DNA of 64,000 bases from Acidimicrobiia bacterium (GTDB lineage Bacteria; Actinomycetota; Acidimicrobiia; Spongiisociales; UBA5794): contig JASJDZ010000001.1 in NCBI GenBank assembly GCA_030065575.1, positions 209,884 to 273,883 of the forward strand, written 5' to 3'. The notes beneath the pieces are model-generated. The model worked only from the letters and a program-made list of their open reading frames with translations, did no database searches and was not told the DNA's origin. Shown here in pieces: positions 3,084 through 56,542 of this stretch. Positions within the stretch are counted from its first letter, which is position 1. Each line of letters begins with the position of its first letter. Made by a program: the position numbers and the translations under genes.

Positions 3084-4085
3084 CTAGATTCCCCGCTCGT
3101 CGAAGCGCCACAGCCCGGCGTCGGTCGCCGCTCGATACGCGGCCCGAATCTCGTCGGAGTTGGGACGCCTGCCGATGTCGGCATAGCGATCAGAACCCGG
3201 GACCCGATGCTCCGGCCGATACTGAGCCATGATGTTCACAAAGGTGTCCTCGGAAACCTCCTCGGCGAGCCAGCCGAAGATGGCAGCGGCTTCGTCGGTC
3301 TGGCCCGGCATGACCAGATGACGAATCAGTAGGCCGCGCCTCGCCAGGCCGCCGCTGTCGACAACGAGATCCCCCACCTGACGGTGCATCTCCTGGATGG
3401 CGATGCGGACGACTTCGGGATAGTCCTTCGCCCTGGCCAGCCGTCGCGCCGTCTCGGGTTCCCAGAACTTGAAGTCGGGCATGTAGATATCGACGAGGCC
3501 GTCCATCAGCTGCAATGACACCAGAGCGTCATAGGCGCTGGTGTTGTAGACGACGGGGATGCGCAGACCGTGTGGAACGGCGATGGCCAGCGCTTCAACC
3601 ACCTGTGGGGCAACGTGTTCCGGAGTGACCAGATTGATGTTGTGGCAACCGACTGTTTGCAGATCGAGCATCAGCGCCGCCAACTCCTCGTCGGTGCACT
3701 CGCGGCCGGCGGGTCCCTGAGAGATATCCCAGTTCTGGCAGAAGACGCAACGGAGATTGCACGAACCGAAGAAGATCGTCCCCGAGCCGCGCCACCCGCG
3801 AAGACAGTCCTCCTCGCCGCCGTGGGCGAAGGCGGCGGTGACCCGAGCCAACCTGCCGATGCGGCACACTCCCTCCTCATCGGCGAGCCGGTCGACCCCG
3901 CAGTCACGGGGGCAGGCAACGCAGTCGCTGAGCTCATCACGAGCTGCCTCCACCTTGGCGGGGAGGCCCCCGGCTTGCCAGGTGGTGTAGGCAATAGGTT
4001 CGCTGCGCTCTACGACGAACTGATCGTCCATACCTCGAAGCGTACGGACCGGATCGCCGACGTCAACAAGGCTGCGATTCGGCAC
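3084..4085 (-). CDS. radical SAM protein, PflX-like (pyruvate formate-lyase activase homologue)
   Basis: Radical-SAM CX3CX2C motif 'CNLRCVFCQN', plus an upstream Cys cluster 'CVACPRDCGVDR'. 333 aa. Confidence 0.75.
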   Translation of the reverse strand: MPNRSLVDVGDPVRTLRGMDDQFVVERSEPIAYTTWQAGGLPAKVEAARDELSDCVACPRDCGVDRLADEEGVCRIGRLARVTAAFAHGGEEDCLRGWRGSGTIFFGSCNLRCVFCQNWDISQGPAGRECTDEELAALMLDLQTVGCHNINLVTPEHVAPQVVEALAIAVPHGLRIPVVYNTSAYDALVSLQLMDGLVDIYMPDFKFWEPETARRLARAKDYPEVVRIAIQEMHRQVGDLVVDSGGLARRGLLIRHLVMPGQTDEAAAIFGWLAEEVSEDTFVNIMAQYRPEHRVPGSDRYADIGRRPNSDEIRAAYRAATDAGLWRFDERGI

Positions 4086-4286
4086 ACGGGGAACTCGGCT
4101 GTCGATGCCCGCTACCGGTCATCAGCAGCCTCGCCAGATGGTTCGAACGGGCCTGGGATTGGGTTGGCTCCTTGCCTTCCAAGGCGACCAGGAAACGCTA
4201 GCGCCGGGCGGGCGTAATCAGTCAATCCGCGCGCCGATTTCTCTCCGAACAAAGGGCAAAGCTTCCCAAGACTCGGAGACCAAAAC

Positions 4287-4766
4287 ATGGCCATCGCAAC
4301 CAAGAGCTGGCTCGACACCGCACACTCGTCGAGCTGGGCTGACTCGCCCTTCTTCGCAGAAACCGTCGAGCTACTTCGCTCTGTTCGTGACCATGACTTC
4401 GACTCGCTAGCTGACCTCTGCGATGACGACTTCGGCATCGTCGATCTCGATCCAAACGGCGGCAGCGTCATGGTGAGGAATCGTGCAGAGTGGGAGGGCT
4501 GGTTCAACAACCTCTTCGCCCAGCTCTCTGCCATCGGTGCTGCCACCGACAGCGAGATTCTCGACTATCAGGTCCTACCGACTGCCGACATGGCCCTAAG
4601 CGTGGTCGAGTTCCGGCAGAGCCTGTCCATGGGCGAGTCGACGGCATTCTTCGACTGCGTGACCACCATCGTTTGGAAGCGCACCGAATCCGGCTGGAAA
4701 GAGGCCCGCTGGCACGTTTCTCTCCTCTCCACCGATATCCCGGAGGACTTCCCGGTAGCCGCCTGA
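4287..4766 (+). CDS. NTF2/SnoaL-like (DUF4440-type) protein
   Basis: 159-aa ORF of the right size with an alpha+beta cone-like pattern ('WKRTESGWKEARWHVS' C-terminal strand). Coding-like composition. Confidence 0.55.
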   Translation: MAIATKSWLDTAHSSSWADSPFFAETVELLRSVRDHDFDSLADLCDDDFGIVDLDPNGGSVMVRNRAEWEGWFNNLFAQLSAIGAATDSEILDYQVLPTADMALSVVEFRQSLSMGESTAFFDCVTTIVWKRTESGWKEARWHVSLLSTDIPEDFPVAA

Positions 4767-4841
4767 ACCCTCTGGCCCCCTCGCATCAAGACCTCTCGCT
4801 TCGTCCCGGCGGAGCGTCCCCTAGATCCCAACCACAAATAC

Positions 4842-4857
4842 CGACGCTCGAGCGTCG
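4842..4857. promoter_or_regulatory. perfect 16-nt palindrome CGACGCTCGAGCGTCG in the rhodopsin leader
   Basis: Read directly. It ends 20 nt upstream of the ATG at 4878, just before the RBS 'GAAAGGAAG'. Confidence 0.4.
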
Positions 4858-4877
4858 AAACTGAAAGGAAGTGACTC

Positions 4878-5690
4878 ATGTCATTCGAGAACGAGTTTGC
4901 GTATACCGTGACCCAGTTCGAGGTCGTCCTCGGGGTGTTCACCCTGACGGCAGCGGTCTTTGCGGCGGTACTCGTCTACTCACTGGTCACCGCAGGGAGC
5001 ATCGCTCCTCGATATCGCCTGACTTCCTACCTGACCGGAGTGGTCATGGTGTCGGCGTTCATCGAGCTCGGCTTGCTTGCCCTGCGATGGAACGGCGCTT
5101 TCGCCTTCGACGGCTCCCTATATGCGTCGACGGGCGAGCTGTTCTCCAACGGGTTCCGCTACATGAACTGGAGCATTGACGTTCCCGTTCTGCTGACCCA
5201 GCTGCTGATTGTCGCCGGCATCACCGGTGTGACGTTCCGCAAGCGCTGGGCATCCTTCGTCATTGCCGGTCTCGGCATGATCTGGACTGGCTACATCGGC
5301 CAATTCGACGAGATCGAGGGTGGCGCGGCCTTCTGGGGCTGGGGCGCAGTCAGCACCCTGTTCTACTTCTGGCTGCTGTATGTCGCCTATCAGACCCTTC
5401 GGGATGCCAAGGCGACGGCTCCGAACGAGGGAATCAAGAAGCTGTTCAACTACGTGTGGATCCTGTTCATCGTTTCGTGGACGATCTACCCGCTCGCCTA
5501 CCTAATGCCGCAGATCAGCGCAACGGTCGAGGGTGTGGTTGCTCGCAACCTCATCTACAGCTTCGCCGACATCGCATCGAAGGCCGTCTACGGCATCCTG
5601 CTCGCCGTGATCGCCCAGAAGCTCAGCGCCCTGCGTGGCTTCAAGCCGGCCATCGAGGCCGAAGAGGCCTTCGCCGAGCAGACCAACTAG
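4878..5690 (+). CDS. microbial (type-1) rhodopsin with NDQ motif, Na+-pumping rhodopsin (KR2-like)
   Basis: Seven hydrophobic segments. Helix C 'RYMNWSIDVPVLLTQL' gives N/D/Q at the BR D85/T89/D96 positions. Schiff-base Lys lies in 'FADIASKAVYG'. KR2-like blocks 'VVMVSAF', 'TGYIGQF' and 'WILFIVSWTIYPLAYLMP' are present. Good RBS. Confidence 0.9.
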   Translation: MSFENEFAYTVTQFEVVLGVFTLTAAVFAAVLVYSLVTAGSIAPRYRLTSYLTGVVMVSAFIELGLLALRWNGAFAFDGSLYASTGELFSNGFRYMNWSIDVPVLLTQLLIVAGITGVTFRKRWASFVIAGLGMIWTGYIGQFDEIEGGAAFWGWGAVSTLFYFWLLYVAYQTLRDAKATAPNEGIKKLFNYVWILFIVSWTIYPLAYLMPQISATVEGVVARNLIYSFADIASKAVYGILLAVIAQKLSALRGFKPAIEAEEAFAEQTN

Positions 5691-5715
5691 CCAACTCAGG
5701 CTCCTAAACGACACG

Positions 5716-5740
5716 GGACCCCCTGCTCAGCAGGGGGTCC
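5716..5740 (+). terminator. GC-rich hairpin terminator after the rhodopsin gene
   Basis: GGACCCCCTGC-TCA-GCAGGGGGTCC, an 11-bp perfect stem, 26 nt after the stop. Confidence 0.7.
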
Positions 5741-5774
5741 TCGTCGTTAAGCTGATCCGCCGCTCCTCTTTCCC

Positions 5775-5822
5775 GTTCTGGCGTCCCAAATCGGAATATG
5801 TTCACTTCTGGGACGCAAGAAC
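5775..5822. repeat. 48-nt imperfect palindromic repeat, copy 1
   Basis: GTTCTGGCGTCCCAAATCGGAATATGTTCACTTCTGGGACGCAAGAAC. About 85% identical to the copies at 6792 and 57696, and self-complementary (GCGTCCCA/TGGGACGC arms). Confidence 0.85.
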
Positions 5823-5866
5823 CACAAGGGGGTCGATGTACGCGACCAGATGTGCGACGCTCGACC

Positions 5867-6787
5867 GTGTCGAATCTTGAAGAGCTGCTAGGTCCAATCG
5901 CAGAGTCGCAACATGGGGTGTTCTCGCTCGACCAGGCACGCCGAGTCGGTGTTGAGCGATCGACCCTGGATAAGCGTGTCGCCCGCGGTGCTCTGACTAG
6001 AGCCCAGTCCACCGTCTACGTGTTCCCGGGATCCGCAGCCACATGGCAACGGGAGGTCACCTCCCTCGTACTGTCCGTTCCCGGGCTAGCCGCTGCGTCG
6101 CACAAGACCGCAGCGTTCATCTGGGGCATGACCTCGTTCGAACCGAGGATCACTGAGGTGGTTACTGCGCGGCACCGTCGAATCCATCGCCAGAACCCGC
6201 AGATTCACGAGTCGAAGGATCTTCACCCCGCAGATGTCATCCTCGTCGACGGGATCCCAACTACGACCTCGGTCCGCACCGTCGTTGATGTGGGGGCCTC
6301 TGCCTCACAGCAGTATGTCGAACACTGTCTCGACACGGGGCTCCGACTAGGGCTATTCACCTTGATAGAGGTTCAGGCGTTCATCAAGCGGGTCGCGCGC
6401 TCCGGCCGGTCCGGCATCGGAAAGATCCGTCCACTGGTGGATGAGCGCATCGGATGGCATGCGGCCACGGAGAGTGCGCTCGAAGACCGATTCCGGCGGC
6501 TCATCACCCGCTCGGGGCTTCCGGTTCCGGCGTCGCAGTACCTCGTCCACGAGGCCTCCGCGATCGTTTGTCGCGCCGACTTCGCCTACCCGGACCATAG
6601 GATCCTCATCGAACTCGACGGCGAGCAGTATCACATGGATCGAGCGACCTTCCAGAATGATCGCGAGAAGCAGAATCGAGCCCATGCGCTCGGCTGGACC
6701 GTGTATCGATTCACTTGGCGCCAAGTGAAGGACGCCCCTGAATCAGTGGTTGCCACACTCAGCGCCGCGCTCAGCACTCCTCGGTAA
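5867..6787 (+). CDS. DUF559 endonuclease-domain protein with N-terminal AbiEi_4-like wHTH
   Basis: The C-terminus ('ILIELDGEQYH...REKQNRAHALGWTVYRFTWRQV') is typical of DUF559/Vsr-like proteins. The N-terminus reads 'GVFSLDQARRVGVERSTLDKRVARGAL'. The track ORF starts at ATG 5798 inside the repeat, so GTG 5867 is a more plausible start (uncertain). Confidence 0.8.
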   Translation: MSNLEELLGPIAESQHGVFSLDQARRVGVERSTLDKRVARGALTRAQSTVYVFPGSAATWQREVTSLVLSVPGLAAASHKTAAFIWGMTSFEPRITEVVTARHRRIHRQNPQIHESKDLHPADVILVDGIPTTTSVRTVVDVGASASQQYVEHCLDTGLRLGLFTLIEVQAFIKRVARSGRSGIGKIRPLVDERIGWHAATESALEDRFRRLITRSGLPVPASQYLVHEASAIVCRADFAYPDHRILIELDGEQYHMDRATFQNDREKQNRAHALGWTVYRFTWRQVKDAPESVVATLSAALSTPR

Positions 6788-6791
6788 TGGG

Positions 6792-6839
6792 GTTCTGGCG
6801 CCCCAGATCGGAACATATTCACCTCTGCGACGCCTGAAT
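6792..6839. repeat. 48-nt imperfect palindromic repeat, copy 2
   Basis: GTTCTGGCGCCCCAGATCGGAACATATTCACCTCTGCGACGCCTGAAT, starting 5 nt after the DUF559 stop. Confidence 0.85.
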
Positions 6840-7017
6840 GAGTGGGTGTGCAATCCGCCCGCCGCCCTGTCAGCGCGGCTGGAGGGCCCGCCGCAATAGG
6901 GCCTCCGCCGGATGCACGGACTCCAGCGGAGCATTGCGTCCCGGCGTGCGCCCACCAATCCGCTGTTCCTGCTCGCTACGGACACAGGTTGAACACCACC
7001 AGAGACGCGAGACAACC

Positions 7018-8001
7018 ATGGAAAGAGTCTTAGTCACCGGCGGAACGGGCTTCATCGGTGTTGAACTGGTCGAGCATCTCTGCCAAATGGGCTACCGACC
7101 TCGAGTGCTTACCCGGCGGCCGCATCGGGCGGCTCTACTCTCGCGCGCCGCCGTCGAGGTCGTTCACGGAGACCTCTTCAGCGAAACGTCACTGCGCCGT
7201 GCACTCGACGGCGTCGATACCGTGATCCATCTCGGCGCCAGGGCCAGCTTCGAGTCCTACCGCCGCCTCGAGCCGACAATCGTGGACGGAACTGCTCGCC
7301 TGGGCCGGTTGGCTGCGGAAACAGGGGTGCGCCACTTCGTCTTCAGTAGCAGCCTATTTGTCTATGGCGGCCAGGAGACCCCCATTGGGCCTGATACTCC
7401 CGCCATGCCCGTCATGGACTACGGCCGAGCCAAGGTTGAGGCGGAGAATGCCCTTCTCGCCGCTGGTGCTGCGAGCGGGATGACCGTAGCCAACCTGCGC
7501 TTCCCCCACGTATACGGACCCCAGTCGATCCTCTTCCAGCAGGCGCGCAAGGGGATCGCTCTCTTCCCGGGCCGAATGGCCAACCACTGCGGGCAACTTC
7601 ATGTCGAGGACGCGGCCCGCATATTGGCCCGGGTCGCCCAGGATCGGTGGTCGGGTACCTCGGCCGTTTCCGACGGAACAAACGTCACCTGGACTGAGTT
7701 CTTCTCGATCCTCGAGGAGCTCTATCCGCGAGTGCGCCTCGTAACGCTTCCCTCGTGGTTCGCATATGCCGGAGCGGCCGTTCTCGAGCCGATTACCTCC
7801 CGGAGGTCCCGCCCCACTCTGTATACGAAGGACACTGTGGTTGGGTTCAACCTCGACCTACCCGTTGAACCAGGTCTCGTCTGGGACGATATCGGTATCG
7901 AGCCGCTGTATCCCAGCGTTGCAGAGGGGATCCCGGCCGTACTCGACGGTTACGTGAGATACCGTTGGCGTCATCCCATCCAGGATCGGCGGAAGGAATG
8001 A
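7018..8001 (+). CDS. NAD-dependent epimerase/dehydratase (extended SDR)
   Basis: 'MERVLVTGGTGFIGVELVEHL' Rossmann motif at the internal ATG 7018. The upstream 60 codons of track ORF 6838 are Arg/Cys-rich and non-coding-like. Confidence 0.85.
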   Translation: MERVLVTGGTGFIGVELVEHLCQMGYRPRVLTRRPHRAALLSRAAVEVVHGDLFSETSLRRALDGVDTVIHLGARASFESYRRLEPTIVDGTARLGRLAAETGVRHFVFSSSLFVYGGQETPIGPDTPAMPVMDYGRAKVEAENALLAAGAASGMTVANLRFPHVYGPQSILFQQARKGIALFPGRMANHCGQLHVEDAARILARVAQDRWSGTSAVSDGTNVTWTEFFSILEELYPRVRLVTLPSWFAYAGAAVLEPITSRRSRPTLYTKDTVVGFNLDLPVEPGLVWDDIGIEPLYPSVAEGIPAVLDGYVRYRWRHPIQDRRKE

Positions 8002-8981
8002 GCGAACCTGCTGACAGTGCCGACGTGATCGTGGTCGGGGCCGGCATGGCAGGCCTGACCGCAGCCCGGGAGCTAAAACAGGCCGGAGTGTCGACTCTGA
8101 TCGTCGACAAGGGACGGGCCCCCGGGGGCCGAATGGCAACCAGGACGATCAACGGTGCCCGCTTTGATCATGGAGCTCAGCACTTCAGTGCGCGCTCCGC
8201 CGAGTTTCGAAGCAAGGCCGCCGAACTGCAGGACGCCGGTGTCGTCCGCAGTTGGTATGAGGCCGACAGCAGGACAACTCCCGGCCTGCGCCGCGAACCG
8301 CGACTAGTCGGCGTGGGCGGCATGCGTCGCATCCCAGAGCATCTGGCCGATGGACTGGATGTGCGGATGTCGATCACAATCGATCGGCTCCACTGGGACG
8401 GCTCGGAAATCATCGCTCTCGCCGGGAACACGCCCATTGCGCGCGGCTCGGCGATCATTCTCACTCTCCCGGTGCCGCAGTTGATCAACCTGCTCGGGGC
8501 CAGCGACACGCAGCCGAGCACTGCGACGCGCGACCATCTCGGCGCAGTCAGTTACAACCCCAGCTTTGCGGTGATGGCCACGCTCGACGCGCCCGGCGGA
8601 CTGCAGGACGGTCACCTCGCAGGGCCGACACAGGACGTCGCTTGGATCGCAGATAACCAGCACAAGGGCACGTCGGAGCTACCCGCAGTGACGATCCACT
8701 CGACCGCCGACTATGCCGCTGCTCATCTCGACGCGGACCGGGATCAATGGACGGATCATCTTGCCAACCAGGTTGCGCCGATCCTGGAGGGGAGGATCAT
8801 CGACGCCGTGGGACATCGGTGGATGTATGCGGAGCCCCGGACAACGTTCGATTCGGGAGCTATTGCCCTCGACTCTGCTCCCCGGACCGTGCTGGCCGGC
8901 GAGGTGTTTGCGGGCGCCAAGGTCGAGGGGGCGTTCCTCTCCGGACTGGCAGCTGCCGGTGCGGTCCTGGAGATGCAGTGA
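7998..8981 (+). CDS. NAD(P)/FAD-dependent oxidoreductase (amine-oxidase/renalase-like, COG3380-type)
   Basis: 'DVIVVGAGMAGLTAARELKQAG' dinucleotide-binding motif. The ATG at 7998 overlaps the upstream stop (ATGA). Confidence 0.75.
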   Translation: MSEPADSADVIVVGAGMAGLTAARELKQAGVSTLIVDKGRAPGGRMATRTINGARFDHGAQHFSARSAEFRSKAAELQDAGVVRSWYEADSRTTPGLRREPRLVGVGGMRRIPEHLADGLDVRMSITIDRLHWDGSEIIALAGNTPIARGSAIILTLPVPQLINLLGASDTQPSTATRDHLGAVSYNPSFAVMATLDAPGGLQDGHLAGPTQDVAWIADNQHKGTSELPAVTIHSTADYAAAHLDADRDQWTDHLANQVAPILEGRIIDAVGHRWMYAEPRTTFDSGAIALDSAPRTVLAGEVFAGAKVEGAFLSGLAAAGAVLEMQ

Positions 8982-15418: not shown

Positions 15419-18400
15419 ATGCTTGACTACAGAGACGGGAAAAGGGGTGGCGTGGAATTCCGCGTTCTTGGAACTCTCGAAGCGGCACACGACGGGGAGC
15501 CGATCGATCTGGGCCCCCTCCGGCAGCGTTCCCTACTTGCGCTGCTGTTGATCCATGCGAATCGTGTAGTTGCAACCGATCGAATCCTCGAAGAGCTCTG
15601 GGGTGACGATGCTGTCGGTAAGGAGAACGCGCTGTGGGTGTACATCTCGCGCCTGCGCAGCGTCCTCGAACCGGACCGTCAGGGGCGTGGTGAGAGCACC
15701 GTCCTGGTGACACGCGATCACGGCTACATGCTGTCAATCGAGCCTGAGTCCATTGATGCGCACCGATTCGAAGCATCGGTCAATGTCGGCCGCTCGTCGG
15801 TACTCGACGACCCGTCCAAGGCGTCATCTGTATTGCGAGAAGCCGCCGACATGTGGCGCGGCCGAGCCTATGAGGACTTCGCCTACGACGAGTTTGCGCA
15901 GGCCGAGATCTCCCGGCTCGAGGAGCTACGCCTGGAAGCGATCGAAGGGCGCATCGAAGCCGATTTGCGGAGGGGCCAGGCTGGGGAGCTGGTCGGCGAG
16001 CTCGAAGCACTCCACCAGGATCATCCGCTGCGCGAGCGCTTTGTGAGTCAGCTGATGCTGGCGCTCTACAGGTCGGGGCGTCAGGCGGAGTCACTGCGCA
16101 CCTTCGAGCGGTTCCGTCGCCATGTCGGCGAGGAGATGGGAATCGAACCGTCTCCGGAGCTGTGTCGCCTGGAGGAGCAAGTGCTCCTGCACGACTCCCG
16201 GATCCAGGCCCGCAGGCCGAGTGCGGCCCGCTCCCCCGGCGGGCTCGTGGGATCCAATCCCTTCAAGGGACTGCAAACCTTCCTCGAACACGACAGCCCC
16301 GACTTCTTTGGCCGGGATCGACTGCTCGCCGACATCGTGCGACGGCTCGAGGAGGGCGCCGGGCTCCTCGCTCTTGTCGGTCCGAGCGGTTCGGGCAAGT
16401 CGAGCGCAGTGCGGGCCGGCCTGATCCCGGCACTACGCAAGGGGGCAATCGAGGGCTCCGACCGGTGGCTCATTGCACAGATGGTGCCCGGTTCTCAACC
16501 GTTTGCAGAACTGGAGGCTGCGCTGTTGCGGTCGTCGCTGGACGCTCCCGACTCGCTTTCCGAGCAGCTTGCCGACCCGGAGGTAGGGATCCTGCGGGCT
16601 GCCTTGCGGGTATTGCCGGACGACCAGGGCTGTCTTGTGCTCGTTATCGACCAGTTCGAGGAGCTATTCACCCTCGTCGATGACGAGCAGCGACGCAGTC
16701 GTTTCCTGGCGAATCTGCTGACGGCTCTCGACGACAGCCGGGGCCGGGTGGTTGTGGTCTTGACCCTTCGCGCCGATTTCTACGATCGGCCGCTGGCCTA
16801 CCCCGAGTTTGGCTCTCGAATGGGTAGCGGCGTTATCAACGTGGTTCCGCTATCGCCCGATGAGCTGGAGGTTGCCGCACAGCGGCCCGCCCAACAAGCC
16901 GGCGTCTCGATCGAACCGGCGCTGCTGGCCGCGTTGCTGACGGACGTCGTGGGCCGACCCGGAGGACTGCCTCTGTTCCAATACACGCTTACCGAGCTGT
17001 TTGATCGCCGGGTGGGTGATCTGCTCACGCTGGATACCTACCGGTCTATCGGGGGCGTTGGTGGAGCACTCACCAAGCGTGCTGAGGATCTCTATTCGCA
17101 ACTCGACGATGCTCAGCGGCAGGCCGCGGGCCAGTTGTTCCTGCGGCTGGTAACAATCACAAAAGACGACGAGTGGGGCCGGCGCCGGGTACCGGCGTCC
17201 GAGATGGTGTCCCTCGACGTCGACGTTGTTGCGTTGCAGGCCGTCATCGAGCTCTATGCCGCGCACCGGCTTCTGACCCTGGATCGGGACTTCGTGTCCG
17301 GCTCGCCGACTGTCGAGGTGGCGCATGAGGCGCTGCTCACGGAATGGGATCGCCTCCGCGACTGGATAGCCGACGGGCGTGAGGATGTGCGCCGCCATGC
17401 CTCGCTCCGCCTGGCGATGGAAGAGTGGATCGAGGCAGACCGCAACGCCGACTTCCTTCTCTCTGGCAGTCGCCTGGAGAGGTACGAGGAGTGGTCGGGC
17501 ACGGCGCAACTGCAGCTCAATGCGGGGCAGCGAGGTTTCCTGGAGGCCTCGATCGCGGCACGAGATCTTGCCACTCAGGTCGAGCAGGAGCGACTGGAAA
17601 CTGAGGCGAGAACCGCCCGATCTGCCAGGCGACGGCTCTGGGGCCTGGCAGCTGCGGTGACTGTCCTTGTAGCCGTCGCGATCATCTGGGGCGTCGTCGC
17701 TCTCGGCCCGGCACCAGCGACGGTGGCGATGTTCACCCCCAGTGATTGGCCCGAAAGCATGACCGATCTGATGGAGACGGGCTTTGCCCGTGCCGAACGT
17801 GAGCTCGATGTCGAGGTAGAGCTCCTCACTGGTCGATTCAGCGACGTGGAGAGCGAGTACCGCAACCTGGCCGAGTCGGGGACCGACCTGATCATCGTCG
17901 ACAGCAACCTGTCTGTGGCTCCCTGGCTCGAGGGAGTCATTGCGGACTACCCGGACACAGCCTTCGCTCTCATCGATCCGTTCTTCGTAATGCCGACCGG
18001 CGCGCTCTCCGTCGGCTTCGCCAATCAGGATGCCGCCTACCTGGCAGGGCTGGCCGCCGCGCTGACAACCGAGAGCGGAGTGGTCGGGTTTGTGGGCGGA
18101 GCTCAAGTCAACTCCGTCACGTCCTGGCGGGCCGGGTTCGAATCGGGAGTCTGGGCCGTGGACTCAGCAATCGACGTCCTGGCAATCCCGGCGACCGCCG
18201 ACACCAGCGGGTTCGCCGACACTGCCGCAGCCAAAGCTGCCGGTACACAGCTGTTTGAGAGCGGTGCCGATGTCATCCTGGCAGTAGCGGCTGACGCAAG
18301 CCTCGGAGTTGTCGAGGCGGCCTGGGAGCAAAGTGAGAGCACGGGCACGCAGCGCTGGGCAATCACTCCCGACTCGGATTGGTGGCCGACCGTGGACGAG

Positions 18401-18973
18401 CACCTAAGGCCGCACGTCCTGACGTCGGCGATCAAGGGCTTGGACGTTGCAGTGTTCGAGACAATCAAGACGCTGACCGAGGGAGAGTTCGAGCCGGGCA
18501 TCAGGACCCTCACGCTGGCCGATGGGGCGTTTTCCCTCACGTCCTCAGGTGAGTACATGACCGAGGATCAGCTGTCACGCATCGCCGACCTGAGCGCAAC
18601 TGTGATCTCCGGTCAAGCGGTCGTACCGGAGTTCCCCGAGGGCGAGATCCTCGCGCCGCCCGGTGTTGAGGTAGCGGAGAGGATCGCCGTTACTTGGGAC
18701 GGAACCACGTGCAGTTACGGCAGCGAACTGACCACTCTCGATATCGGTACGGCCATGCGGCTCGACTTCACAAATTCGAGCTCAGGAATAGCGGAAATGG
18801 CGGTAATGCAGGTCCAACCCGAGTTGGAATTGCAGTTGGTTGTTCCCACCGGGCCCCAGAGCGGAGCCTACGGCTTTGCCGTCCTGGGCCCGGGGAGCTT
18901 CGAGGTGAGCTGTCTGCCCAGCGGCCTCATGCCATGGGAAAGAACGACCGGAGCCATTCTGACCGCCGGGTAG
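15419..18973 (+). CDS. SARP-type wHTH-BTAD / nSTAND P-loop NTPase / TM / extracytoplasmic BMP (PnrA-like) binding-domain fusion protein
   Basis: The N-terminus 'VEFRVLGTLEA...' has the OmpR-type wHTH plus BTAD pattern. 'NPFKGLQTFLEHDSPDFFGRD', Walker A 'GPSGSGKSS' and Walker B 'LVLVIDQFEELF' follow. The TM helix is 'LWGLAAAVTVLVAVAIIWGVVAL'. The C-terminus has BMP-like 'VVGFVGGAQVNSVTSWRAGFESGV'. Confidence 0.85.
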   Translation: MLDYRDGKRGGVEFRVLGTLEAAHDGEPIDLGPLRQRSLLALLLIHANRVVATDRILEELWGDDAVGKENALWVYISRLRSVLEPDRQGRGESTVLVTRDHGYMLSIEPESIDAHRFEASVNVGRSSVLDDPSKASSVLREAADMWRGRAYEDFAYDEFAQAEISRLEELRLEAIEGRIEADLRRGQAGELVGELEALHQDHPLRERFVSQLMLALYRSGRQAESLRTFERFRRHVGEEMGIEPSPELCRLEEQVLLHDSRIQARRPSAARSPGGLVGSNPFKGLQTFLEHDSPDFFGRDRLLADIVRRLEEGAGLLALVGPSGSGKSSAVRAGLIPALRKGAIEGSDRWLIAQMVPGSQPFAELEAALLRSSLDAPDSLSEQLADPEVGILRAALRVLPDDQGCLVLVIDQFEELFTLVDDEQRRSRFLANLLTALDDSRGRVVVVLTLRADFYDRPLAYPEFGSRMGSGVINVVPLSPDELEVAAQRPAQQAGVSIEPALLAALLTDVVGRPGGLPLFQYTLTELFDRRVGDLLTLDTYRSIGGVGGALTKRAEDLYSQLDDAQRQAAGQLFLRLVTITKDDEWGRRRVPASEMVSLDVDVVALQAVIELYAAHRLLTLDRDFVSGSPTVEVAHEALLTEWDRLRDWIADGREDVRRHASLRLAMEEWIEADRNADFLLSGSRLERYEEWSGTAQLQLNAGQRGFLEASIAARDLATQVEQERLETEARTARSARRRLWGLAAAVTVLVAVAIIWGVVALGPAPATVAMFTPSDWPESMTDLMETGFARAERELDVEVELLTGRFSDVESEYRNLAESGTDLIIVDSNLSVAPWLEGVIADYPDTAFALIDPFFVMPTGALSVGFANQDAAYLAGLAAALTTESGVVGFVGGAQVNSVTSWRAGFESGVWAVDSAIDVLAIPATADTSGFADTAAAKAAGTQLFESGADVILAVAADASLGVVEAAWEQSESTGTQRWAITPDSDWWPTVDEHLRPHVLTSAIKGLDVAVFETIKTLTEGEFEPGIRTLTLADGAFSLTSSGEYMTEDQLSRIADLSATVISGQAVVPEFPEGEILAPPGVEVAERIAVTWDGTTCSYGSELTTLDIGTAMRLDFTNSSSGIAEMAVMQVQPELELQLVVPTGPQSGAYGFAVLGPGSFEVSCLPSGLMPWERTTGAILTAG

Positions 18974-25176: not shown

Positions 25177-25374
25177 TTTCCGTTCGGAGCTGATACATAT
25201 ACATCGGTGCCGAGCACGGTTGTGGATGCCTTCGAGCCCTCCCTCAGACCCTGTGGTTGCCCTCCCAAAGAATGGCCGGCTGGGGACACGGCCGGCAGAA
25301 CTCAGAGGTAGGCTCGAACGCAGAGCATCCGGCCGCACCAGCGGTGGGTACGAGTTCAATTGGACACGGCTTCA

Positions 25375-27045
25375 ATGTCTGCTCTGAACCGGTTCAAGCA
25401 ATCAGATGCGTTCTGGCATCTTGAAACCTCCCTGGTGGTCCTTGCCGTCCTGCTTTCGATCATGGCGCTGTTCTCCAACCCAACCCGATCGGGCGCCGTG
25501 TCCGAGGAAGCACAGCCGATATCCGGTGTGATCGCTCAGGCGAATGCCATGCCCCACCAGGGTTGGGCGCCCATGACGGTCTACTTCAGCGCCTTTGGAA
25601 GTCGCTCGACGAGTGGGGACATCCTGCGATACGAGTGGGATCTGGATGGCAATGGCCTCTACGACACTGAAACCGCCGACGGCTACGCCAGCTACACCTA
25701 CGCGAAGCCGGGCGACTACGTGGTAACTCTGCGAGTCGTGGATGAAGCCGGTGCCAGGGCAACCGACAGTCTCACGGTATCTGTTCGCCATCCCGGGTCG
25801 AGCCCGGTGGATTACTGGACGGTTTTTGACGACAGCAGGGTGCAGAGGGTCGATATCGAGTTGACCCAGGCCGCGTGGGATGAGCTCTGGGTCGATCCCG
25901 AGTCCAAGCGAACCGTCAGAGCTGACGCAGAGGTATTCGGGGAGAGACTCAACGACGTCGGATTCCGAATGAGAGGACAGTTCTCCTTGCGGGAATCTGG
26001 GGAGAAGAAGCCGTGGAAGATCGACACCGACTTCTACGTCGACGGCCAGGAGTACCGGAACCTGAAGCAGCTGATGTTCATCAACAACATCGGCGACCCG
26101 ACCATGGTCAGCGAGAAGGTGGCCTACGACCTACTGGGCTTCGCCGGGGTGCCCGCATCGCACGTCAGCTTCGTTGAACTCTGGATCGACATCACAGATG
26201 ACGGCGCGGGTCCTGTCTTCTGGGGTGTGTACTCGATGGTGGAACGAGTCGACAGGAAGTTCCTCGCAGCCAGATTCGGGAACGACAGTGACCAGGGGAA
26301 TCTCTACAAGGCAAGCCATGCGCAGAGAGGCCCCATGGATCTGATCTACTACGGCGACAGCATCGAGAACTACCCGACGCAAGGCGGACAGTATGCCTAC
26401 GGGAAGGTCACCAACGAGGAGGAGAACGACTACTCCGACGTGATCAACCTCGCCAGGGTGATCGACGGCACCACCTATTCCACCTGGGAGGACTTCGCAG
26501 AGGCTCTGGAGGAGGTGTTCAACGTGGATACCTTCCTGCGCTACATCGCCGTGATGAACGCTTTCGCCACCTGGGATTACTACCCGTACACGGGCAACAA
26601 CTTCTTCCTCTACAACAACCCTGCGACCGGCAGGTTCGAGTGGATTCCCTGGGATCTAACGGTGGGAGGGGACACGCGCACTCCCCTCTTCGAACTCACC
26701 GACTTCGGGTTCCTGGAACGGGCTCCGCTCTACGAGAACGTCTTCGAGGTCGAACGGTATCGCTGGAAGTACGCGGCCTACCTCGACCTCCTCGCCAGGA
26801 ACCGTTTCAACTACGACATCATCTACGCATCAACGAGCGGGCTGCACGACATGATCGCCCCCTACGTGACGCAGGGCACCGGGGACAAGATGTACTTCGG
26901 TGACACGGCCATGTTCCCGTACGAGAGCTTCGCAGGCGGGTGGGACGGACTGGCGACCTTCGCCGGTGAGAGAAGCCGTTTCATCCTCGAGGAGCTTGCC
27001 TCAATGCAACAGCAATCCGTCTTCGACTCAGGAGGATCACAGTGA
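25375..27045 (+). CDS. membrane-anchored PKD-domain + CotH kinase family protein
   Basis: N-terminal anchor 'LVVLAVLLSIMALF'. PKD-like 'MTVYFSAFGS...YEWDLDGNG...GDYVVTLRVVDEAG'. CotH-like blocks 'NLYK' and 'NNFFLYNNPATGRFEWIPWDL'. Confidence 0.8.
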   Translation: MSALNRFKQSDAFWHLETSLVVLAVLLSIMALFSNPTRSGAVSEEAQPISGVIAQANAMPHQGWAPMTVYFSAFGSRSTSGDILRYEWDLDGNGLYDTETADGYASYTYAKPGDYVVTLRVVDEAGARATDSLTVSVRHPGSSPVDYWTVFDDSRVQRVDIELTQAAWDELWVDPESKRTVRADAEVFGERLNDVGFRMRGQFSLRESGEKKPWKIDTDFYVDGQEYRNLKQLMFINNIGDPTMVSEKVAYDLLGFAGVPASHVSFVELWIDITDDGAGPVFWGVYSMVERVDRKFLAARFGNDSDQGNLYKASHAQRGPMDLIYYGDSIENYPTQGGQYAYGKVTNEEENDYSDVINLARVIDGTTYSTWEDFAEALEEVFNVDTFLRYIAVMNAFATWDYYPYTGNNFFLYNNPATGRFEWIPWDLTVGGDTRTPLFELTDFGFLERAPLYENVFEVERYRWKYAAYLDLLARNRFNYDIIYASTSGLHDMIAPYVTQGTGDKMYFGDTAMFPYESFAGGWDGLATFAGERSRFILEELASMQQQSVFDSGGSQ

Positions 27046-28439
27046 GTGGAAATCGCGTCTGTCGAGTCGGGGTCCTCGTCCTGATGGGAGTCCTGCTCAC
27101 GGCCTCCCCGGTGCGAGCCGACGACGGAGGATTTGCCGAGACATTCGACGATACGGGCCTCGCCGGCTGGGAGCAGCAGGGTGACACGATCGTCGAAGCC
27201 GGCATTCTCAAGATGTCGCCACCGTCGATGGTTACGAGGCCCGGTACGTGGTCTGGAATATCGCTGACAGTGGAACTCCGCCTCGATGCTGAGGGATTCG
27301 CGGTAATCGACTACATGGTCACGGAGGGGCAGCACTACTCCCTGACCGTGCTGTCGGAGCAGGTGTTCCTGGAGCAGGTAACCGAGGACGATCAGGTACG
27401 CCTGTGGGAGACAACCGATTCCACCGTCACGGATGATTGGAGCACGGTGACGATCGGATTCGACGGCACCGACCACACGGTGACAATCAACGACAGCCTC
27501 CTGGCCACGGTCGCAGACTCGAACCCACTGGCAGCCGGCGGGGTCAGGCTTCACATCCCTGCCGGATCTCTCGTCGAGTTCGACGAGGTGACACTCGTGG
27601 CTCAGTCAGGTGACGCTGGCGAATTGGGTGAAACCGCCCCTGAACCCGCCGAGGAGATGACCCCAATCCCGGGGGAGGAGATGCCGCCCGGAGAGCAGGA
27701 CACCCCTCCGGTCGAGGGGCAAACCGGCGCGGTCGCCGACCCGGCGAGCGAGACCACGACCGACACGGGGTTCTTCAGCGACTTCTTCGCCACACAGCCG
27801 AACAACGTCGAACTCAGAACCTTTGCTGTCAATCTCGGCCTCGCTGCGATCGTCGCCTACATCCTGAGTCTGGCCTACATCCATTGGGGGGCCTCCCTAT
27901 CCAACCGAAGGGTCTTTGCCGCCAACTTCATGTTGCTGACGTTGACGACGACCTCCATCATCCTGGTCGTCCGTTCGTCGGTTGCCCTATCGCTCGGTCT
28001 CGTCGGCGCACTGTCCATCGTGCGTTTCCGGGCTGCAATCAAGGAACCGGAGGAGTTGGCCTACCTGTTCCTCGCCATCGGCCTCGGTATTGGCCTCGGT
28101 GACAACCAGCGTCTGGTGGTGTTGCTGACTCTCGTTGTTGCGATCGTGGTGATCGGCCTCATGAAGTTGTTCCGCAACCCCACCGCCGATCCCAATCTGC
28201 ACCTGGCGGTTGCCTCCAACGCGCCCAACAAGGTCGGTCTCGAGGACATCACAAACGTGCTCGACCAGCATTGCTCGCAGGTGAAGCTGCTTCGCTTCGA
28301 TGAGGATCCTGACACGCTGGAGACATCGTTTCTTGTCGAGTTCAAGCGAGTCTCCGATGTCGGCCAGACGAACGCCGCACTGCAAGCTCTATCTCCCGGG
28401 ATGCAGGTAACACTGCTCGACAACAGGGGAATCTGGTAG
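27042..28439 (+). CDS. secreted jelly-roll (DUF1080/LamG-like) domain + acidic Pro/Glu linker + DUF4956 membrane domain protein
   Basis: GTG overlaps the CotH stop, with RBS GGAGGA. Signal peptide 'VLVLMGVLLTASPVRADD'. DUF4956 hallmark 'LGLVGALSIVRFRAAIKEPEELAYLFLAIGLGIGLG'. Confidence 0.8.
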   Translation: MSGNRVCRVGVLVLMGVLLTASPVRADDGGFAETFDDTGLAGWEQQGDTIVEAGILKMSPPSMVTRPGTWSGISLTVELRLDAEGFAVIDYMVTEGQHYSLTVLSEQVFLEQVTEDDQVRLWETTDSTVTDDWSTVTIGFDGTDHTVTINDSLLATVADSNPLAAGGVRLHIPAGSLVEFDEVTLVAQSGDAGELGETAPEPAEEMTPIPGEEMPPGEQDTPPVEGQTGAVADPASETTTDTGFFSDFFATQPNNVELRTFAVNLGLAAIVAYILSLAYIHWGASLSNRRVFAANFMLLTLTTTSIILVVRSSVALSLGLVGALSIVRFRAAIKEPEELAYLFLAIGLGIGLGDNQRLVVLLTLVVAIVVIGLMKLFRNPTADPNLHLAVASNAPNKVGLEDITNVLDQHCSQVKLLRFDEDPDTLETSFLVEFKRVSDVGQTNAALQALSPGMQVTLLDNRGIW

Positions 28440-28446
28440 GCACGCC

Positions 28447-29121
28447 ATGGCCAGTTACCGGTACGAGCGGAAGTTCCTCGTAGACCAGCTCGACGAGCAC
28501 CAGGTGATGGGGCTGATCCGGCGCCACCCGGCGATGTTCTATCAGCCCTACCCGCCCCGGATCAACAACAACTTCTATATGGACACGGCCGACATGGTGC
28601 ACTACCACGACAACGTCATCGGCTCTGCCGACCGACGAAAGGTGCGGATCCGCTGGTACGGATCGTTGACGGGCCTCGCGGCAGAGCCGGTGCTCGAGTT
28701 CAAGATCAAGCGCGGATTGGTGGGTACCAAGCGCCAGTATCGAGTTCCCGGCTTCACGGTAGGGCGCGGGTTCAAGACGAAGGAGGTGATGCGAGGGATC
28801 CTCGGAGGGGACCTTCCCCCCGAAGTCAGGAGTTCACTGAGAACGGTGAACATCGTGCTGATGAACAACTACCACCGCCGCTACTTCGTCTCGCGAGACG
28901 GGCGGTTCCGGCTCACCCTCGACACCAAGATGGCCTACTACCGAATTGCGGAAACGAGCAACTGGATGGCCCATAGGCAATCCGACCAACGCAACGTGAT
29001 CCTGGAACTCAAGTACGGAATCGAGGACGACGCAGCCGCTTCTAAAGTGTCCACCTTCTTCCCCTTCCGCATCACCAAGAGCTCTAAGTACGTGCAGGGA
29101 ATAGAGCGGGTGTATATGTAG
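28447..29121 (+). CDS. VTC-domain (CYTH-like polyphosphate polymerase domain) protein
   Basis: 'YRYERKFLV' N-terminal CYTH/VTC signature and 'RKVRIRWYG'. 224 aa, 8 nt after the upstream stop. Confidence 0.75.
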   Translation: MASYRYERKFLVDQLDEHQVMGLIRRHPAMFYQPYPPRINNNFYMDTADMVHYHDNVIGSADRRKVRIRWYGSLTGLAAEPVLEFKIKRGLVGTKRQYRVPGFTVGRGFKTKEVMRGILGGDLPPEVRSSLRTVNIVLMNNYHRRYFVSRDGRFRLTLDTKMAYYRIAETSNWMAHRQSDQRNVILELKYGIEDDAAASKVSTFFPFRITKSSKYVQGIERVYM

Positions 29122-34345: not shown

Positions 34346-34430
34346 GCGGAGATCGTCGGAGGCCTTGGTGGTGGTCGAGTTGTCGACGAGTTGTGGTCGC
34401 TACCGTCGTCCAATTCGATACGATGTCCGT

Positions 34431-56472: not shown

Positions 56473-56542
56473 ACTCCAATGTGTCTAATTTTCTTGACAG
56501 ACTGTAATTTATTGCCGACAGCATGCCATGTCAAGTATTTTC

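What the first reader, a model, noticed from the sequence alone, without database searches (positions are those of the whole stretch)
4878..5690. NDQ-motif (Na+-pump type) rhodopsin in a GC-rich actinobacterial-type context
What the sequence shows:
- Helix C reads 'RYMNWSIDVPVLLTQL'. This puts Asn, Asp and Gln at the bacteriorhodopsin D85/T89/D96 positions.
- The retinal Lys sits in 'FADIASKAVYG', with Asp four residues before it (KR2 D251/K255 equivalents).
- Several blocks are near-identical to KR2 as I recall it: 'VVMVSAF', 'LFSNGFRY', 'TGYIGQF' and 'WILFIVSWTIYPLAYLMP'.
- Glu replaces KR2 D102.

Why it is unusual:
- NDQ pumps are best known from Bacteroidota and a few other lineages. The neighbours here (SARP regulators, DDN, TadE) look actinobacterial.
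- No blh/crtEBIY genes occur anywhere in the 64 kb.
- The gene has its own leader palindrome and terminator and abuts repeat elements. That is compatible with an acquired single-gene module.
Basis: partly seen in the sequence, partly recalled or inferred. Interest (0 to 1): 0.7.

Follow-up and report, generated by a model that had tools for sequence, protein, structure and literature searches.

The report
ErNaR-type sodium-pump rhodopsin in Acidimicrobiia
The gene is a real light-driven sodium-pump rhodopsin of the recently described ErNaR-like subgroup, but it is a native gene shared by many uncultured Acidimicrobiia rather than an odd recent acquisition, so it is a fairly ordinary new member of a known family.

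Summary
The ORF at 4878-5690 (+) is real. It encodes a 270-aa microbial rhodopsin (Pfam E 6e-36).

Alignment with PDB-verified KR2 and bacteriorhodopsin puts N97/D101/Q108 at BR D85/T89/D96 and D231/K235 at the Schiff-base positions. That is the full RNDQDK signature of NDQ sodium pumps.

It also has Glu63 at KR2 L74, the residue that defines "Subgroup 2". Its closest solved relative is ErNaR (E 7e-67, 45% identity, model TM 0.91). The sodium-pump reading is therefore supported, and can be narrowed to ErNaR-like.

The "unusual lineage, acquired module" reading is not supported:
- About 112 protein clusters and about 50 genome loci (species representatives), nearly all labelled Acidimicrobiia/Actinomycetota, carry orthologues at 66-93% identity.
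- These form a clade with 99.5% bootstrap support and invariant key residues.
- dN/dS is 0.06-0.14.
- The locus is syntenic with its closest relatives.
- The repeat elements flank a 1.2-kb DUF559 insertion next door, not the rhodopsin.

No crt/blh genes occur in the 64 kb. This is confirmed but uninformative.

One new observation: the NTF2-like (SnoaL_3) gene just upstream is a recurrent rhodopsin neighbour. It lies next to a DTE-type rhodopsin as well. In some relatives it sits with a B12-dependent LitR/CarH-like regulator and a photolyase-like gene.

The parts
4878..5690 (+). NDQ (RNDQDK) rhodopsin gene, 270 aa, Subgroup 2 / ErNaR-like; stop codon included
   Evidence: ORF. Pfam PF01036, E 6e-36. 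ErNaR 8qle E 6.6e-67 and KR2 E 6e-51. AF2 pLDDT 92.3. Foldseek best hits are ErNaR entries at TM 0.91.
5064..5066 (+). Codon GAG for Glu63. It corresponds to ErNaR E64 at the KR2 L74 position and is the extra Schiff-base counterion that defines Subgroup 2.
   Evidence: Alignment. Definition taken from PMC11006869. Present in 110 of 112 clade members.
5166..5201 (+). Helix C motif codons: N97 (5166-5168), D101 (5178-5180), Q108 (5199-5201). These align with BR D85/T89/D96.
   Evidence: Sequence read. Alignment with verified KR2 and BR. Invariant in 112 of 112 clade members.
5568..5582 (+). Helix G codons: D231 (5568-5570) and the retinal-binding K235 (5580-5582). These correspond to KR2 D251/K255.
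4864..4871 (+). Ribosome-binding site AAAGGAAG, 6 nt before the ATG
   Evidence: Sequence. GAAAGGA is invariant, and the neighbouring bases nearly so, in the alignment of the upstream regions of L001, L002, L004, L005 and L011.
4842..4857 (.). The 'leader palindrome' CGACGCT-CG-AGCGTCG, 21-36 nt upstream of the start. Its function is unknown.
   Evidence: Hairpins of different sequence lie at the same position in L004, L005, L011, L017 and L018. The fold is not better than shuffled sequence, z = -0.83. No Rfam match.
5716..5740 (.). Perfect 12-bp G+C-rich hairpin, 26 nt after the stop codon. Likely an intrinsic terminator.
   Evidence: A fold of 5700-5830, which also holds the first repeat copy, has z = -6.1. 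An equivalent hairpin is conserved in L001, L002 and L004, and a different hairpin sits there in L005 and L011.
4287..4766 (+). NTF2-like protein (Pfam SnoaL_3/DUF4440), 159 aa. A recurrent neighbour of rhodopsin genes and possibly co-transcribed here.
   Evidence: Pfam E 9e-12. Adjacent to the rhodopsin in 14 loci plus the window. Four of seven reverse look-ups also found it next to a rhodopsin. AF2 pLDDT 89 with a generic NTF2 fold.
5747..6937 (+). Segment of about 1.2 kb that L001 lacks (L004 lacks a similar stretch). It holds the AbiEi_4/DUF559 ORF (5798-6787), bracketed by 47-nt imperfect-palindrome repeats at 5775-5821 and 6792-6838. It is context, not part of the pump.
   Evidence: Repeats. 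Pfam. Indel boundaries: L001 joins window 5746 to 6938; the L004 match resumes at window 6997. A third repeat copy lies at about 57697-57743.
7018..8981 (+). SDR 'epimerase' gene (about 7018-8001) and a 338-aa Amino_oxidase-family flavoprotein gene (7965-8981). In relatives these are the conserved downstream neighbours of the rhodopsin.
   Evidence: Pfam and NCBIfam give only generic matches. They lie directly downstream of the rhodopsin in L004, and the flavoprotein does so in L001 and L071.

Best explanation
The gene encodes a seven-helix, retinal-binding, light-driven outward Na+ pump of the NDQ family, Subgroup 2 (ErNaR-like). It is native to an uncultured Acidimicrobiia bacterium.

Inferred mechanism, by homology to ErNaR and KR2:
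1. All-trans retinal is bound as a protonated Schiff base to K235.
2. After photoisomerisation the Schiff-base proton moves to D101.
3. Na+ enters from the cytoplasm past Q108, with S50/A243 at the entrance.
4. Na+ passes the deprotonated Schiff base and is held transiently by N97 and D231 in the O state.
5. Na+ leaves past R94 and the E4/E145/R223 cluster.
6. E63 hydrogen-bonds D101 as an additional counterion. In ErNaR this makes the spectrum and the pumping nearly independent of pH and raises selectivity for Na+ over H+.

What is shown here: the fold, all of these residues, their invariance in the clade, purifying selection, and long residence at this locus.

What is inferred: ion specificity, direction of transport, the pentameric state, and the availability of retinal.
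For: Family and closest relatives:
- Pfam rhodopsin.
- Best PDB sequence hits: ErNaR 229 bits, IaNaR 187, KR2 177, ClR about 166-170, xanthorhodopsin 114.
- AF2 model pLDDT 92.3 with seven long helices. Top Foldseek hits are ErNaR 9tbd/8qle/9tbf at TM 0.91.

Diagnostic residues:
- RNDQDK signature plus E63, matching the published definitions (PMC11006869).
- KR2 E11/E160/R243, S70, W113, W215, Y218 and S254 equivalents are all conserved. Q78 is replaced by Leu and D102 by Glu, as in ErNaR.
- 112 of 112 clade members keep R, N, D, Q, D and K. 110 of 112 keep the Glu.

Evidence that the gene is in use and native:
- dN/dS 0.06-0.14 against seven orthologues.
- Conserved RBS and terminator hairpin.
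- Synteny with close relatives.

Light-related context in relatives:
- The orthologue lies beside a divergent HTH_17 + B12-binding (LitR/CarH-type) regulator gene.
- It also lies beside a photolyase-like gene and a heliorhodopsin gene.
Against: - No transport assay exists for any actinobacterial member. Only two Subgroup 2 proteins, ErNaR and SrNaR, have been studied, and both are alphaproteobacterial. ErNaR is only 45% identical.
- ErNaR R19 and KR2 H30, which lie at the oligomer interface, are not conserved here (L18, G19).
- The cytoplasmic-gate pair differs in each protein: S50/A243 here, N61/G263 in KR2, A51/S254 in ErNaR. Cation selectivity could therefore differ.
- No retinal or carotenoid genes occur in the 64 kb. 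The rest of the genome could not be examined.
- The deeper phylogeny is unresolved in my NJ bootstraps: 17% for all Glu-bearing sequences as one group. Subgroup assignment therefore rests on the defining residue and the best hit, not on a supported node.
Confidence: 0.8

Rival explanations
1. It is mainly a proton pump, or a mixed H+/Na+ pump, under the host's natural conditions. These are probably low-salt soil or sediment, so the Na+ label would be misleading.
For: - KR2-type NDQ pumps transport H+ when Na+ is absent, and ErNaR takes up H+ competitively at low pH (PMC11006869).
- Many orthologues come from MAG series that I recognise, from my own knowledge and untested here, as soil or sediment surveys.
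- The cytoplasmic-gate residues differ from both characterised models.
Against: - The complete NDQ motif and the Glu counterion are invariant in the clade.
- A DTE-type proton-pump rhodopsin occupies an equivalent cassette in one relative (L067). That implies the two types are distinct functional alternatives.
Confidence: 0.1
2. This is the first reader's view: the rhodopsin is a recently acquired, self-contained single-gene module brought in by horizontal transfer, as shown by its own leader, its terminator and the abutting repeats.
For: - The gene has its own RBS and a strong terminator, and a repeat element starts 85 nt after the stop codon.
- Its context differs among more distant Acidimicrobiia.
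- NDQ Subgroup 2 genes occur in Alphaproteobacteria, Cyanobacteria and Actinomycetota. Ancient transfer between phyla is therefore likely.
Against: - SnoaL_3-rhodopsin synteny, with further shared flanking genes, holds in L001, L002, L004, L005 and L011 at 72-82% DNA identity.
- The repeats bracket the DUF559 ORF, a segment that L001 and L004 lack.
- GC is 0.604 against 0.623 for the window. GC3 is 0.83, at the top of the window's range.
- The Acidimicrobiia clade is monophyletic at 99.5% bootstrap.
- dS of 0.6-1.1 to syntenic orthologues shows long residence at this locus.
- There is no tRNA gene in the window, and no integrase or transposase family was hit in the ORFs scanned.
Confidence: 0.07
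3. The protein is an opsin without a working chromophore supply, or it has a sensory or regulatory role rather than an energy or ion-homeostasis role.
For: - No blh/crt genes in 64 kb.
- The gene has regulatory neighbours in relatives (LitR-like).
Against: - Strong purifying selection on every pump residue.
- There is no transducer-like neighbour.
- Retinal genes are also unlinked to the rhodopsin in relatives.
- From my own knowledge, not tested here: retinal genes are usually unlinked to sodium-pump genes, and retinal can be scavenged.
Confidence: 0.03

Closest known systems
ErNaR, the light-driven Na+ pump of Erythrobacter sp. HL-111 (PDB 8QLE, 8QLF, 9TBD, 9TBF); NDQ rhodopsin Subgroup 2 (Podoliak et al. 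2024, PMC11006869)
   Same: - RNDQDK motif.
- Glu at KR2 L74 (E63 here, E64 in ErNaR).
- Leu at KR2 Q78 and Glu at KR2 D102.
- The E/E/R extracellular cluster.
- Short N-terminus beginning MSFENEFAY, against SIENFLAY in ErNaR.
- Best sequence hit (E 6.6e-67) and best structural hit (TM 0.91).
   Different: - Only 45% identical.
- An actinobacterial host instead of an alphaproteobacterial one.
- R19 and H20 of ErNaR are L18 and G19 here.
- The cytoplasmic-gate pair is S50/A243, against A51/S254 in ErNaR.
- A shorter D-E loop: the alignment shows 8 residues fewer.
- Never assayed.
KR2 (Dokdonia eikasta), IaNaR and the other Subgroup 1 NDQ sodium pumps
   Same: The NDQ motif, D251/K255, R109, S70, the E11/E160/R243 equivalents, and several near-identical blocks (VVMVSAF, TGYIGQF, WILF..SWT.YP.AYLMP).
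   Different: - 39% identity.
- Glu instead of Leu at position 74.
- D102 of the interprotomer Na+ site is replaced by Glu, and H30 by Gly.
- N61/G263 are replaced by S/A.
NTQ chloride pumps (ClR / NM-R3, Nonlabens marinus)
   Same: The same 'omega rhodopsin' fold. TM 0.95 to the model, about 36-37% identity in the structural alignment, sequence E about 1e-48 to 2e-47.
   Different: Thr instead of Asp at the central motif position. The window protein has Asp101, so it is not an NTQ pump.
Actinorhodopsins, acidirhodopsins and xanthorhodopsins (DTE H+ pumps). These are the rhodopsins usually reported from Actinobacteria.
   Same: An actinobacterial host. A DTE rhodopsin occupies an equivalent LitR / SnoaL_3 / photolyase-like cassette in L067.
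   Different: The motif is DTE with His at KR2 L74. It is 29% identical to the window protein.

Membership tests
Microbial (type 1) rhodopsin, Pfam PF01036 | Seven-transmembrane fold matching the family profile | tested here: met
   Pfam E 5.9e-36 against a cut-off of 24.6 bits. The AF2 model has seven long helices, pLDDT 92.3. Foldseek TM is 0.87-0.95 to solved rhodopsins.
Microbial (type 1) rhodopsin, Pfam PF01036 | Retinal-binding Lys in helix G (BR K216) | tested here: met
   K235 aligns with BR K216 and KR2 K255.
NDQ rhodopsins / NaR clade (definition in PMC11006869) | Six-letter motif RNDQDK at KR2 R109, N112, D116, Q123, D251, K255, and a length above 250 aa | tested here: met
   R94, N97, D101, Q108, D231, K235; 270 aa. 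The definition was read.
NDQ rhodopsins / NaR clade | Light-driven outward Na+ transport | not testable with these tools
   This needs heterologous expression and ion-flux or electrophysiology assays. It is inferred only from homology.
NDQ rhodopsins / NaR clade | Bound all-trans retinal chromophore available in the host | tested here: inconclusive
   No crt, blh or RPE65-type Pfam family occurs in the roughly 60 window ORFs scanned. The rest of the genome is not available.
NDQ Subgroup 2 (ErNaR-like) | Glu at the KR2 L74 position (ErNaR E64) | tested here: met
   E63. The definition was read.
NDQ Subgroup 2 (ErNaR-like) | KR2 D102 (interprotomer Na+ site) absent or substituted | tested here: met
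   E87 is at that position. The clade varies here: D 58, E 19, S 18 and A 5 among 112 members.
NDQ Subgroup 2 (ErNaR-like) | Phylogenetic placement with Subgroup 2 rather than Subgroup 1 | tested here: inconclusive
   The best hits are ErNaR, and the NJ topology groups the query with the other Glu-bearing sequences. Bootstrap support for that grouping is only 17%.
NDQ Subgroup 2 (ErNaR-like) | pH-insensitive spectrum and high Na+/H+ selectivity | not testable with these tools
   These are spectroscopic and electrophysiological properties.
NTQ chloride pumps | Thr at BR T89 / KR2 D116 | tested here: not met
   Asp101.
DTE/DTD proton pumps (actinorhodopsin, xanthorhodopsin, BR) | Asp at BR D85 and a carboxylate at BR D96 | tested here: not met
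   Asn97 and Gln108.

The most novel reading that the evidence does not exclude
In Acidimicrobiia, the rhodopsin and the 159-aa NTF2-like (SnoaL_3) protein encoded next to it may form a two-gene, light-responsive module. In one subclade a divergently transcribed B12-dependent LitR/CarH-type photoregulator sits beside them and would control the module.

On this reading the NTF2-like protein is a so far unrecognised accessory factor of rhodopsin function, for example in chromophore supply, handling or isomerisation, or in photoprotection.

The same protein family sits beside both NDQ Na+ pumps and a DTE H+ pump. The link would therefore be to the rhodopsin or its chromophore, not to the transported ion.
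Probability: 0.25. Interest if true: 0.6.

Novelty: new member of a known kind. Interest (0 to 1): 0.3.

Why it matters
**Ecology.** NDQ Subgroup 2 has two characterised members, both from Alphaproteobacteria. This gene belongs to a large, well-conserved and wholly uncharacterised clade in uncultured Acidimicrobiia. If these proteins pump Na+, then sodium-based phototrophy or light-driven Na+ homeostasis is a common trait of that class.

**Tools.** The clade is a stock of ErNaR-like variants. ErNaR itself is pH-robust and Na+-selective. Such proteins are of interest as optogenetic silencers.

**For the scan.** The gene is a correct call, but it is not an anomaly.

**The least expected result.** This lies beside the gene: a tightly conserved NTF2-like protein that travels with rhodopsins of two ion classes, in some relatives together with a LitR/CarH-type regulator and a photolyase-like gene. 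I found no paper in the searchable library that links a SnoaL/NTF2-like protein with a rhodopsin.

Tried and rejected
- **NCBIfam:** no model matches the rhodopsin or the SnoaL_3 protein.
- **Rfam on 3900-7100:** only one sub-threshold chance hit, so there is no known leader RNA.
- **The leader palindrome as an RNA structure:** the fold is no better than shuffled sequence, z = -0.83. Hairpins of other sequence sit at the same place in some relatives, but 5-7-bp stems are common in 62% G+C DNA. I left it as unexplained.
- **A LitR-type operator in the window:** the AT-rich conserved block of the LitR-rhodopsin intergenic regions is absent upstream of both the rhodopsin and the SnoaL_3 gene here. 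No LitR homologue occurs in the 64 kb.
- **Carotenoid assignment for 7965-8981:** the best NCBIfam hits (HpnE, crtI_fam) cover mainly the N-terminal Rossmann segment and fall far below the cut-offs. I rejected this as evidence for carotenoid genes.
- **A blh seed from relatives:** none of the neighbourhoods examined contains crt or blh. I therefore could not test retinal synthesis in the relatives' genomes.
- **Fold search of the NTF2-like protein:** only generic NTF2-fold hits, namely the CaMKII hub, scytalone dehydratase and bile-acid dehydratase.
- **Deep phylogeny:** NJ bootstraps resolve only the Acidimicrobiia clade. The first bootstrap attempt timed out.
- **Literature:** no paper in the searchable library describes NDQ rhodopsins of Acidimicrobiia, or links SnoaL or LitR with rhodopsin. 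The ErNaR paper's supplements hold no taxon names.
- **The 47-nt repeat:** absent from all 73 related loci.
Full report
**1. The observation**

The ORF at 4878-5690 on the + strand starts with ATG, ends with TAG and encodes 270 aa. It matches Pfam Bac_rhodopsin over residues 21-248 with E 5.9e-36.

To fix the motif positions I aligned the protein with KR2 and bacteriorhodopsin. I supplied both sequences from memory and then checked them against the PDB. KR2 is 280/280 identical to 7q36_A. BR matches bacteriorhodopsin chains over residues 1-249. The alignment gives:
- N97/D101/Q108 at BR D85/T89/D96, which are KR2 N112/D116/Q123.
- D231/K235 at KR2 D251/K255.
- R94 at KR2 R109.
- E87 at KR2 D102.

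**2. What kind of NDQ rhodopsin it is**

The best solved relatives by sequence are three entries named only 'bacteriorhodopsin-like protein': 8qle, 9tbd and 9tbf (E 6.6e-67 to 1.1e-65). The structure search identifies these as ErNaR, the light-driven sodium pump of Erythrobacter sp. HL-111. Next come IaNaR (8jh0), KR2 (E about 6e-51), the NTQ chloride pumps and xanthorhodopsin.

The paper describing ErNaR (PMC11006869) gives two definitions:
- The NDQ clade is defined by the six-residue motif RNDQDK and a length above 250 aa.
- The clade splits into Subgroup 1 (Leu/Ile at KR2 L74; includes KR2) and Subgroup 2 (Glu at that position; ErNaR E64, an extra Schiff-base counterion hydrogen-bonded to the NDQ Asp).

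The window protein has RNDQDK and Glu63 at that position. Like ErNaR, it has Leu at KR2 Q78 and Glu at KR2 D102. It keeps the E11/E160/R243, S70, W113, W215, Y218 and S254 equivalents.

An AlphaFold2 model built on 32 homologues has pLDDT 92.3 and seven long helices. Its best structural matches are the ErNaR entries at TM 0.91. Identity is 45% to ErNaR and 39% to KR2.

It is the most informative residue beyond the NDQ motif.

**3. How widespread it is**

The protein database returns 488 homologues at E <= 1e-10, of which the best 120 are listed. Of those, the 112 clusters at 66-91% identity are named, where they have a name at all, 'MAG: bacteriorhodopsin [Acidimicrobiia / Acidimicrobiales / Actinomycetota bacterium]'. 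A gap follows, down to about 50-56% identity, where Micromonospora and Blastococcus appear.

In the species-representative genome collection, about 50 loci labelled Acidimicrobiia, Ilumatobacteraceae or Actinomycetota carry an orthologue at 68-93% identity. Pseudokineococcus follows at 49-51% and several cyanobacteria at 44-47%.

Among the 112 closest clusters, R, N, D, Q, D and K are invariant, and the Glu is present in 110.

A neighbour-joining tree puts all Acidimicrobiia sequences in one clade with 99.5% bootstrap support. Deeper nodes are not resolved: all actinobacterial sequences group at 29% and all Glu-bearing sequences at 17%.

An actinobacterial NDQ pump is therefore not an oddity. 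It is a large, conserved clade that has not been characterised. I found no paper in the searchable library that describes it.

**4. Native or acquired?**

The evidence points to a native gene.
- *Synteny.* tblastn and blastn against the fetched loci show that the closest relatives share the neighbourhood. L002 matches the window at 72-79% DNA identity across the DUF5996 gene, the radical-SAM gene, the SnoaL_3 gene, the rhodopsin and further genes. L001, L005 and L011 share the SnoaL_3-rhodopsin pair. L004 has rhodopsin-SDR-flavoprotein contiguous.
- *Selection and age.* Against seven orthologues dN/dS is 0.06-0.14 and dS is 0.6-1.1. The gene has therefore sat at this locus for a long time under strong purifying selection.
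- *Composition.* GC is 0.604 against 0.623 for the window. GC3 is 0.83, at the top of the window's range.
- *Mobility markers.* There is no tRNA gene in the window, and no integrase or transposase family was hit in the ORFs scanned.

The 'repeat elements' are real. A 47-nt imperfect palindrome occurs at 5775-5821, at 6792-6838 and at about 57697-57743. The first two copies bracket the AbiEi_4/DUF559 ORF at 5798-6787, not the rhodopsin. L001 joins the equivalents of window 5746 and 6938 directly, and in L004 the match resumes at window 6997. The indel is therefore the roughly 1.2-kb DUF559 segment. Ancient transfer between phyla remains likely, given the scattered distribution of the family.

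**5. Flanking signals**

- The RBS AAAGGAAG lies 6 nt before the ATG. Its core GAAAGGA is invariant in the five closest relatives aligned.
- A perfect 12-bp G+C-rich hairpin lies 26 nt after the stop codon. The same or a substitute hairpin is present in relatives. It is probably the terminator. A fold of 5700-5830, which holds this hairpin and the first repeat copy, has z = -6.1.
- The leader palindrome at 4842-4857 exists. Hairpins of different sequence occupy the same position in several relatives. The fold is not statistically distinguishable from shuffled sequence (z = -0.83), and Rfam has nothing there. I leave it unexplained.

**6. Chromophore supply**

About 60 window ORFs were scanned against Pfam, and some against NCBIfam. 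None is a phytoene synthase, phytoene desaturase, lycopene cyclase, blh (BCD) or RPE65-type oxygenase.

The 338-aa Amino_oxidase-family protein at 7965-8981 matches crtI and HpnE models mainly through its N-terminal dinucleotide-binding segment, far below the cut-offs.

None of the relatives' neighbourhoods that I examined holds such genes either. Strong purifying selection argues that the pigment is made. The whole genome could not be searched.

**7. What turned up beside the gene**

*The NTF2-like neighbour.* The 159-aa protein encoded at 4287-4766 (Pfam SnoaL_3/DUF4440) lies within 300 nt of the rhodopsin in 14 of about 50 Acidimicrobiia loci plus the window. It occurs in three arrangements:
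- upstream on the same strand;
- downstream on the same strand, with a 4-nt overlap in L066;
- downstream on the opposite strand.

Whenever it occurs within a 20-kb locus it is adjacent to the rhodopsin. The one exception is L056, where the rhodopsin looks degenerate.

*Reverse test.* I started from seven SnoaL_3 homologues chosen only because they sit on long contigs. Four lie next to a rhodopsin (L067, L070, L071, L073) and three do not (L068, L069, L072).

*The family itself.* It is tight: 369 database proteins, of which the 120 listed are 58-91% identical to the window protein. It has many invariant polar residues. Its model (pLDDT 89) shows a generic NTF2 fold.

*Not specific to Na+ pumps.* In L067 its neighbour is not an NDQ pump but a DTE-motif rhodopsin, with helix C reading RYVDWLLTVPLLLAEL and 29% identity to the window protein. 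The association is therefore with rhodopsins in general, not with Na+ transport.

*Other light-related neighbours.*
- In L019, L023, L026 and L030 (NDQ) and in L067 (DTE), a divergent gene directly upstream of the rhodopsin encodes HTH_17 + B12-binding_2 + B12-binding. From my own knowledge, that is the architecture of LitR/CarH-type light-dependent repressors.
- A roughly 400-aa photolyase-like protein (FAD_binding_7 only) lies next to the rhodopsin in L006, L010 and L067 and within a few kb of it in L024 and L029. A heliorhodopsin lies next to it in L006 and about 5 kb away in L029.
- The window has the photolyase-like gene 33 kb away, at 37820-39034, and no LitR homologue.

These neighbours support the view that the rhodopsin is part of a light-response gene set. 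They also raise the possibility that the NTF2-like protein is a functional partner. I found no paper linking SnoaL or NTF2-like proteins with rhodopsins.

**8. Verdict**

The gene is an NDQ sodium-pump-type rhodopsin, more precisely an ErNaR-like Subgroup 2 member. It is not an unusual or recently acquired gene in this host. It is one member of a large, vertically maintained Acidimicrobiia clade.

I file it as a new member of a known kind. I put confidence of about 0.8 in the light-driven outward Na+ pump mechanism, which is inferred by homology and has not been assayed.

Interest is modest at 0.3. It comes mainly from the size of the uncharacterised actinobacterial clade and from the recurrent NTF2-like neighbour.

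Noticed in passing
window 4287-4766 (+); also L001, L002, L005, L011, L015, L019, L023, L024, L026, L030, L033, L044, L045/L066, L067, L070, L071, L073: A tightly conserved 159-aa NTF2-like protein (SnoaL_3/DUF4440) lies directly beside rhodopsin genes in three different gene arrangements. In L066 the two genes overlap by 4 nt. It accompanies both NDQ pumps and a DTE-type rhodopsin (L067). Three homologues have no rhodopsin nearby (L068, L069, L072). Its function is unknown and its fold is generic NTF2.
   Followed up: partly
L019:1024-1770(-), L023:9095-9853(-), L026:2019-2759(-), L030:9095-9853(-), L067:5498-6262(-): A gene with HTH_17 + B12-binding_2 + B12-binding domains (LitR/CarH-type architecture) is divergently placed directly upstream of the rhodopsin in one subclade. 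The intergenic regions share an AT-rich conserved block. The window has no such gene and no such block.
   Followed up: partly
window 37820-39034 (-); L006/L065:11012-12217, L010, L024, L029, L067:7322-8539: A roughly 400-aa photolyase-like protein that matches only the FAD_binding_7 domain lies next to the rhodopsin in L006, L010 and L067 and within a few kb of it in L024 and L029. The window's copy is 33 kb away from the rhodopsin. A heliorhodopsin gene lies next to the NDQ rhodopsin in L006/L065 and about 5 kb from it in L029.
   Followed up: partly
window 5775-5821, 6792-6838, about 57697-57743: A 47-nt imperfect-palindrome (REP-like) repeat occurs three times in the window, where none is expected by chance. 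It is absent from all 73 related loci. It is present on four metagenome contigs (JAAUYE, JAAUYK and JAAUXZ series). Two copies bracket the AbiEi_4/DUF559 ORF at 5798-6787, a segment of about 1.2 kb that relatives L001 and L004 lack.
   Followed up: partly
L077 (JAAUYK010239873.1) against window 56064-57894: A public metagenome contig of 1831 nt is 99.95% identical to the window. The same organism, or a near-identical strain, is therefore present in that metagenome and could be used to recover the rest of the genome.
   Followed up: no
L056:9820-10613 and L070:4323-4925: These look like degenerate rhodopsin copies. The L056 NDQ homologue aligns with Q/H at the D251/K255 positions and matches only in pieces. 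L070 has a DTE-type rhodopsin that lacks its N-terminal half, beside a truncated LitR-like gene. They may be pseudogenes or assembly errors.
   Followed up: no
window 15419-18973 (+) and 34146-37367 (+): Two large SARP-type regulators (Trans_reg_C + BTAD + STAND NTPase). The first carries a C-terminal Bmp/PnrA-like substrate-binding domain, which is an unusual fusion for a transcriptional activator.
   Followed up: no
window 25360-29121 (+): Three same-strand genes in a row: a CotH kinase-like protein with PKD domains, a DUF4956 protein (with a 3-keto-disaccharide hydrolase-like N-terminal region) and a VTC-domain protein. This looks like a conserved cassette of unknown role.
   Followed up: no
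window 4842-4857: The palindrome CGACGCT-CG-AGCGTCG lies 21-36 nt upstream of the rhodopsin start. Hairpins of different sequence occupy the same position in L004, L005, L011, L017 and L018. The fold is not statistically stronger than shuffled sequence, and no Rfam family matches.
   Followed up: partly
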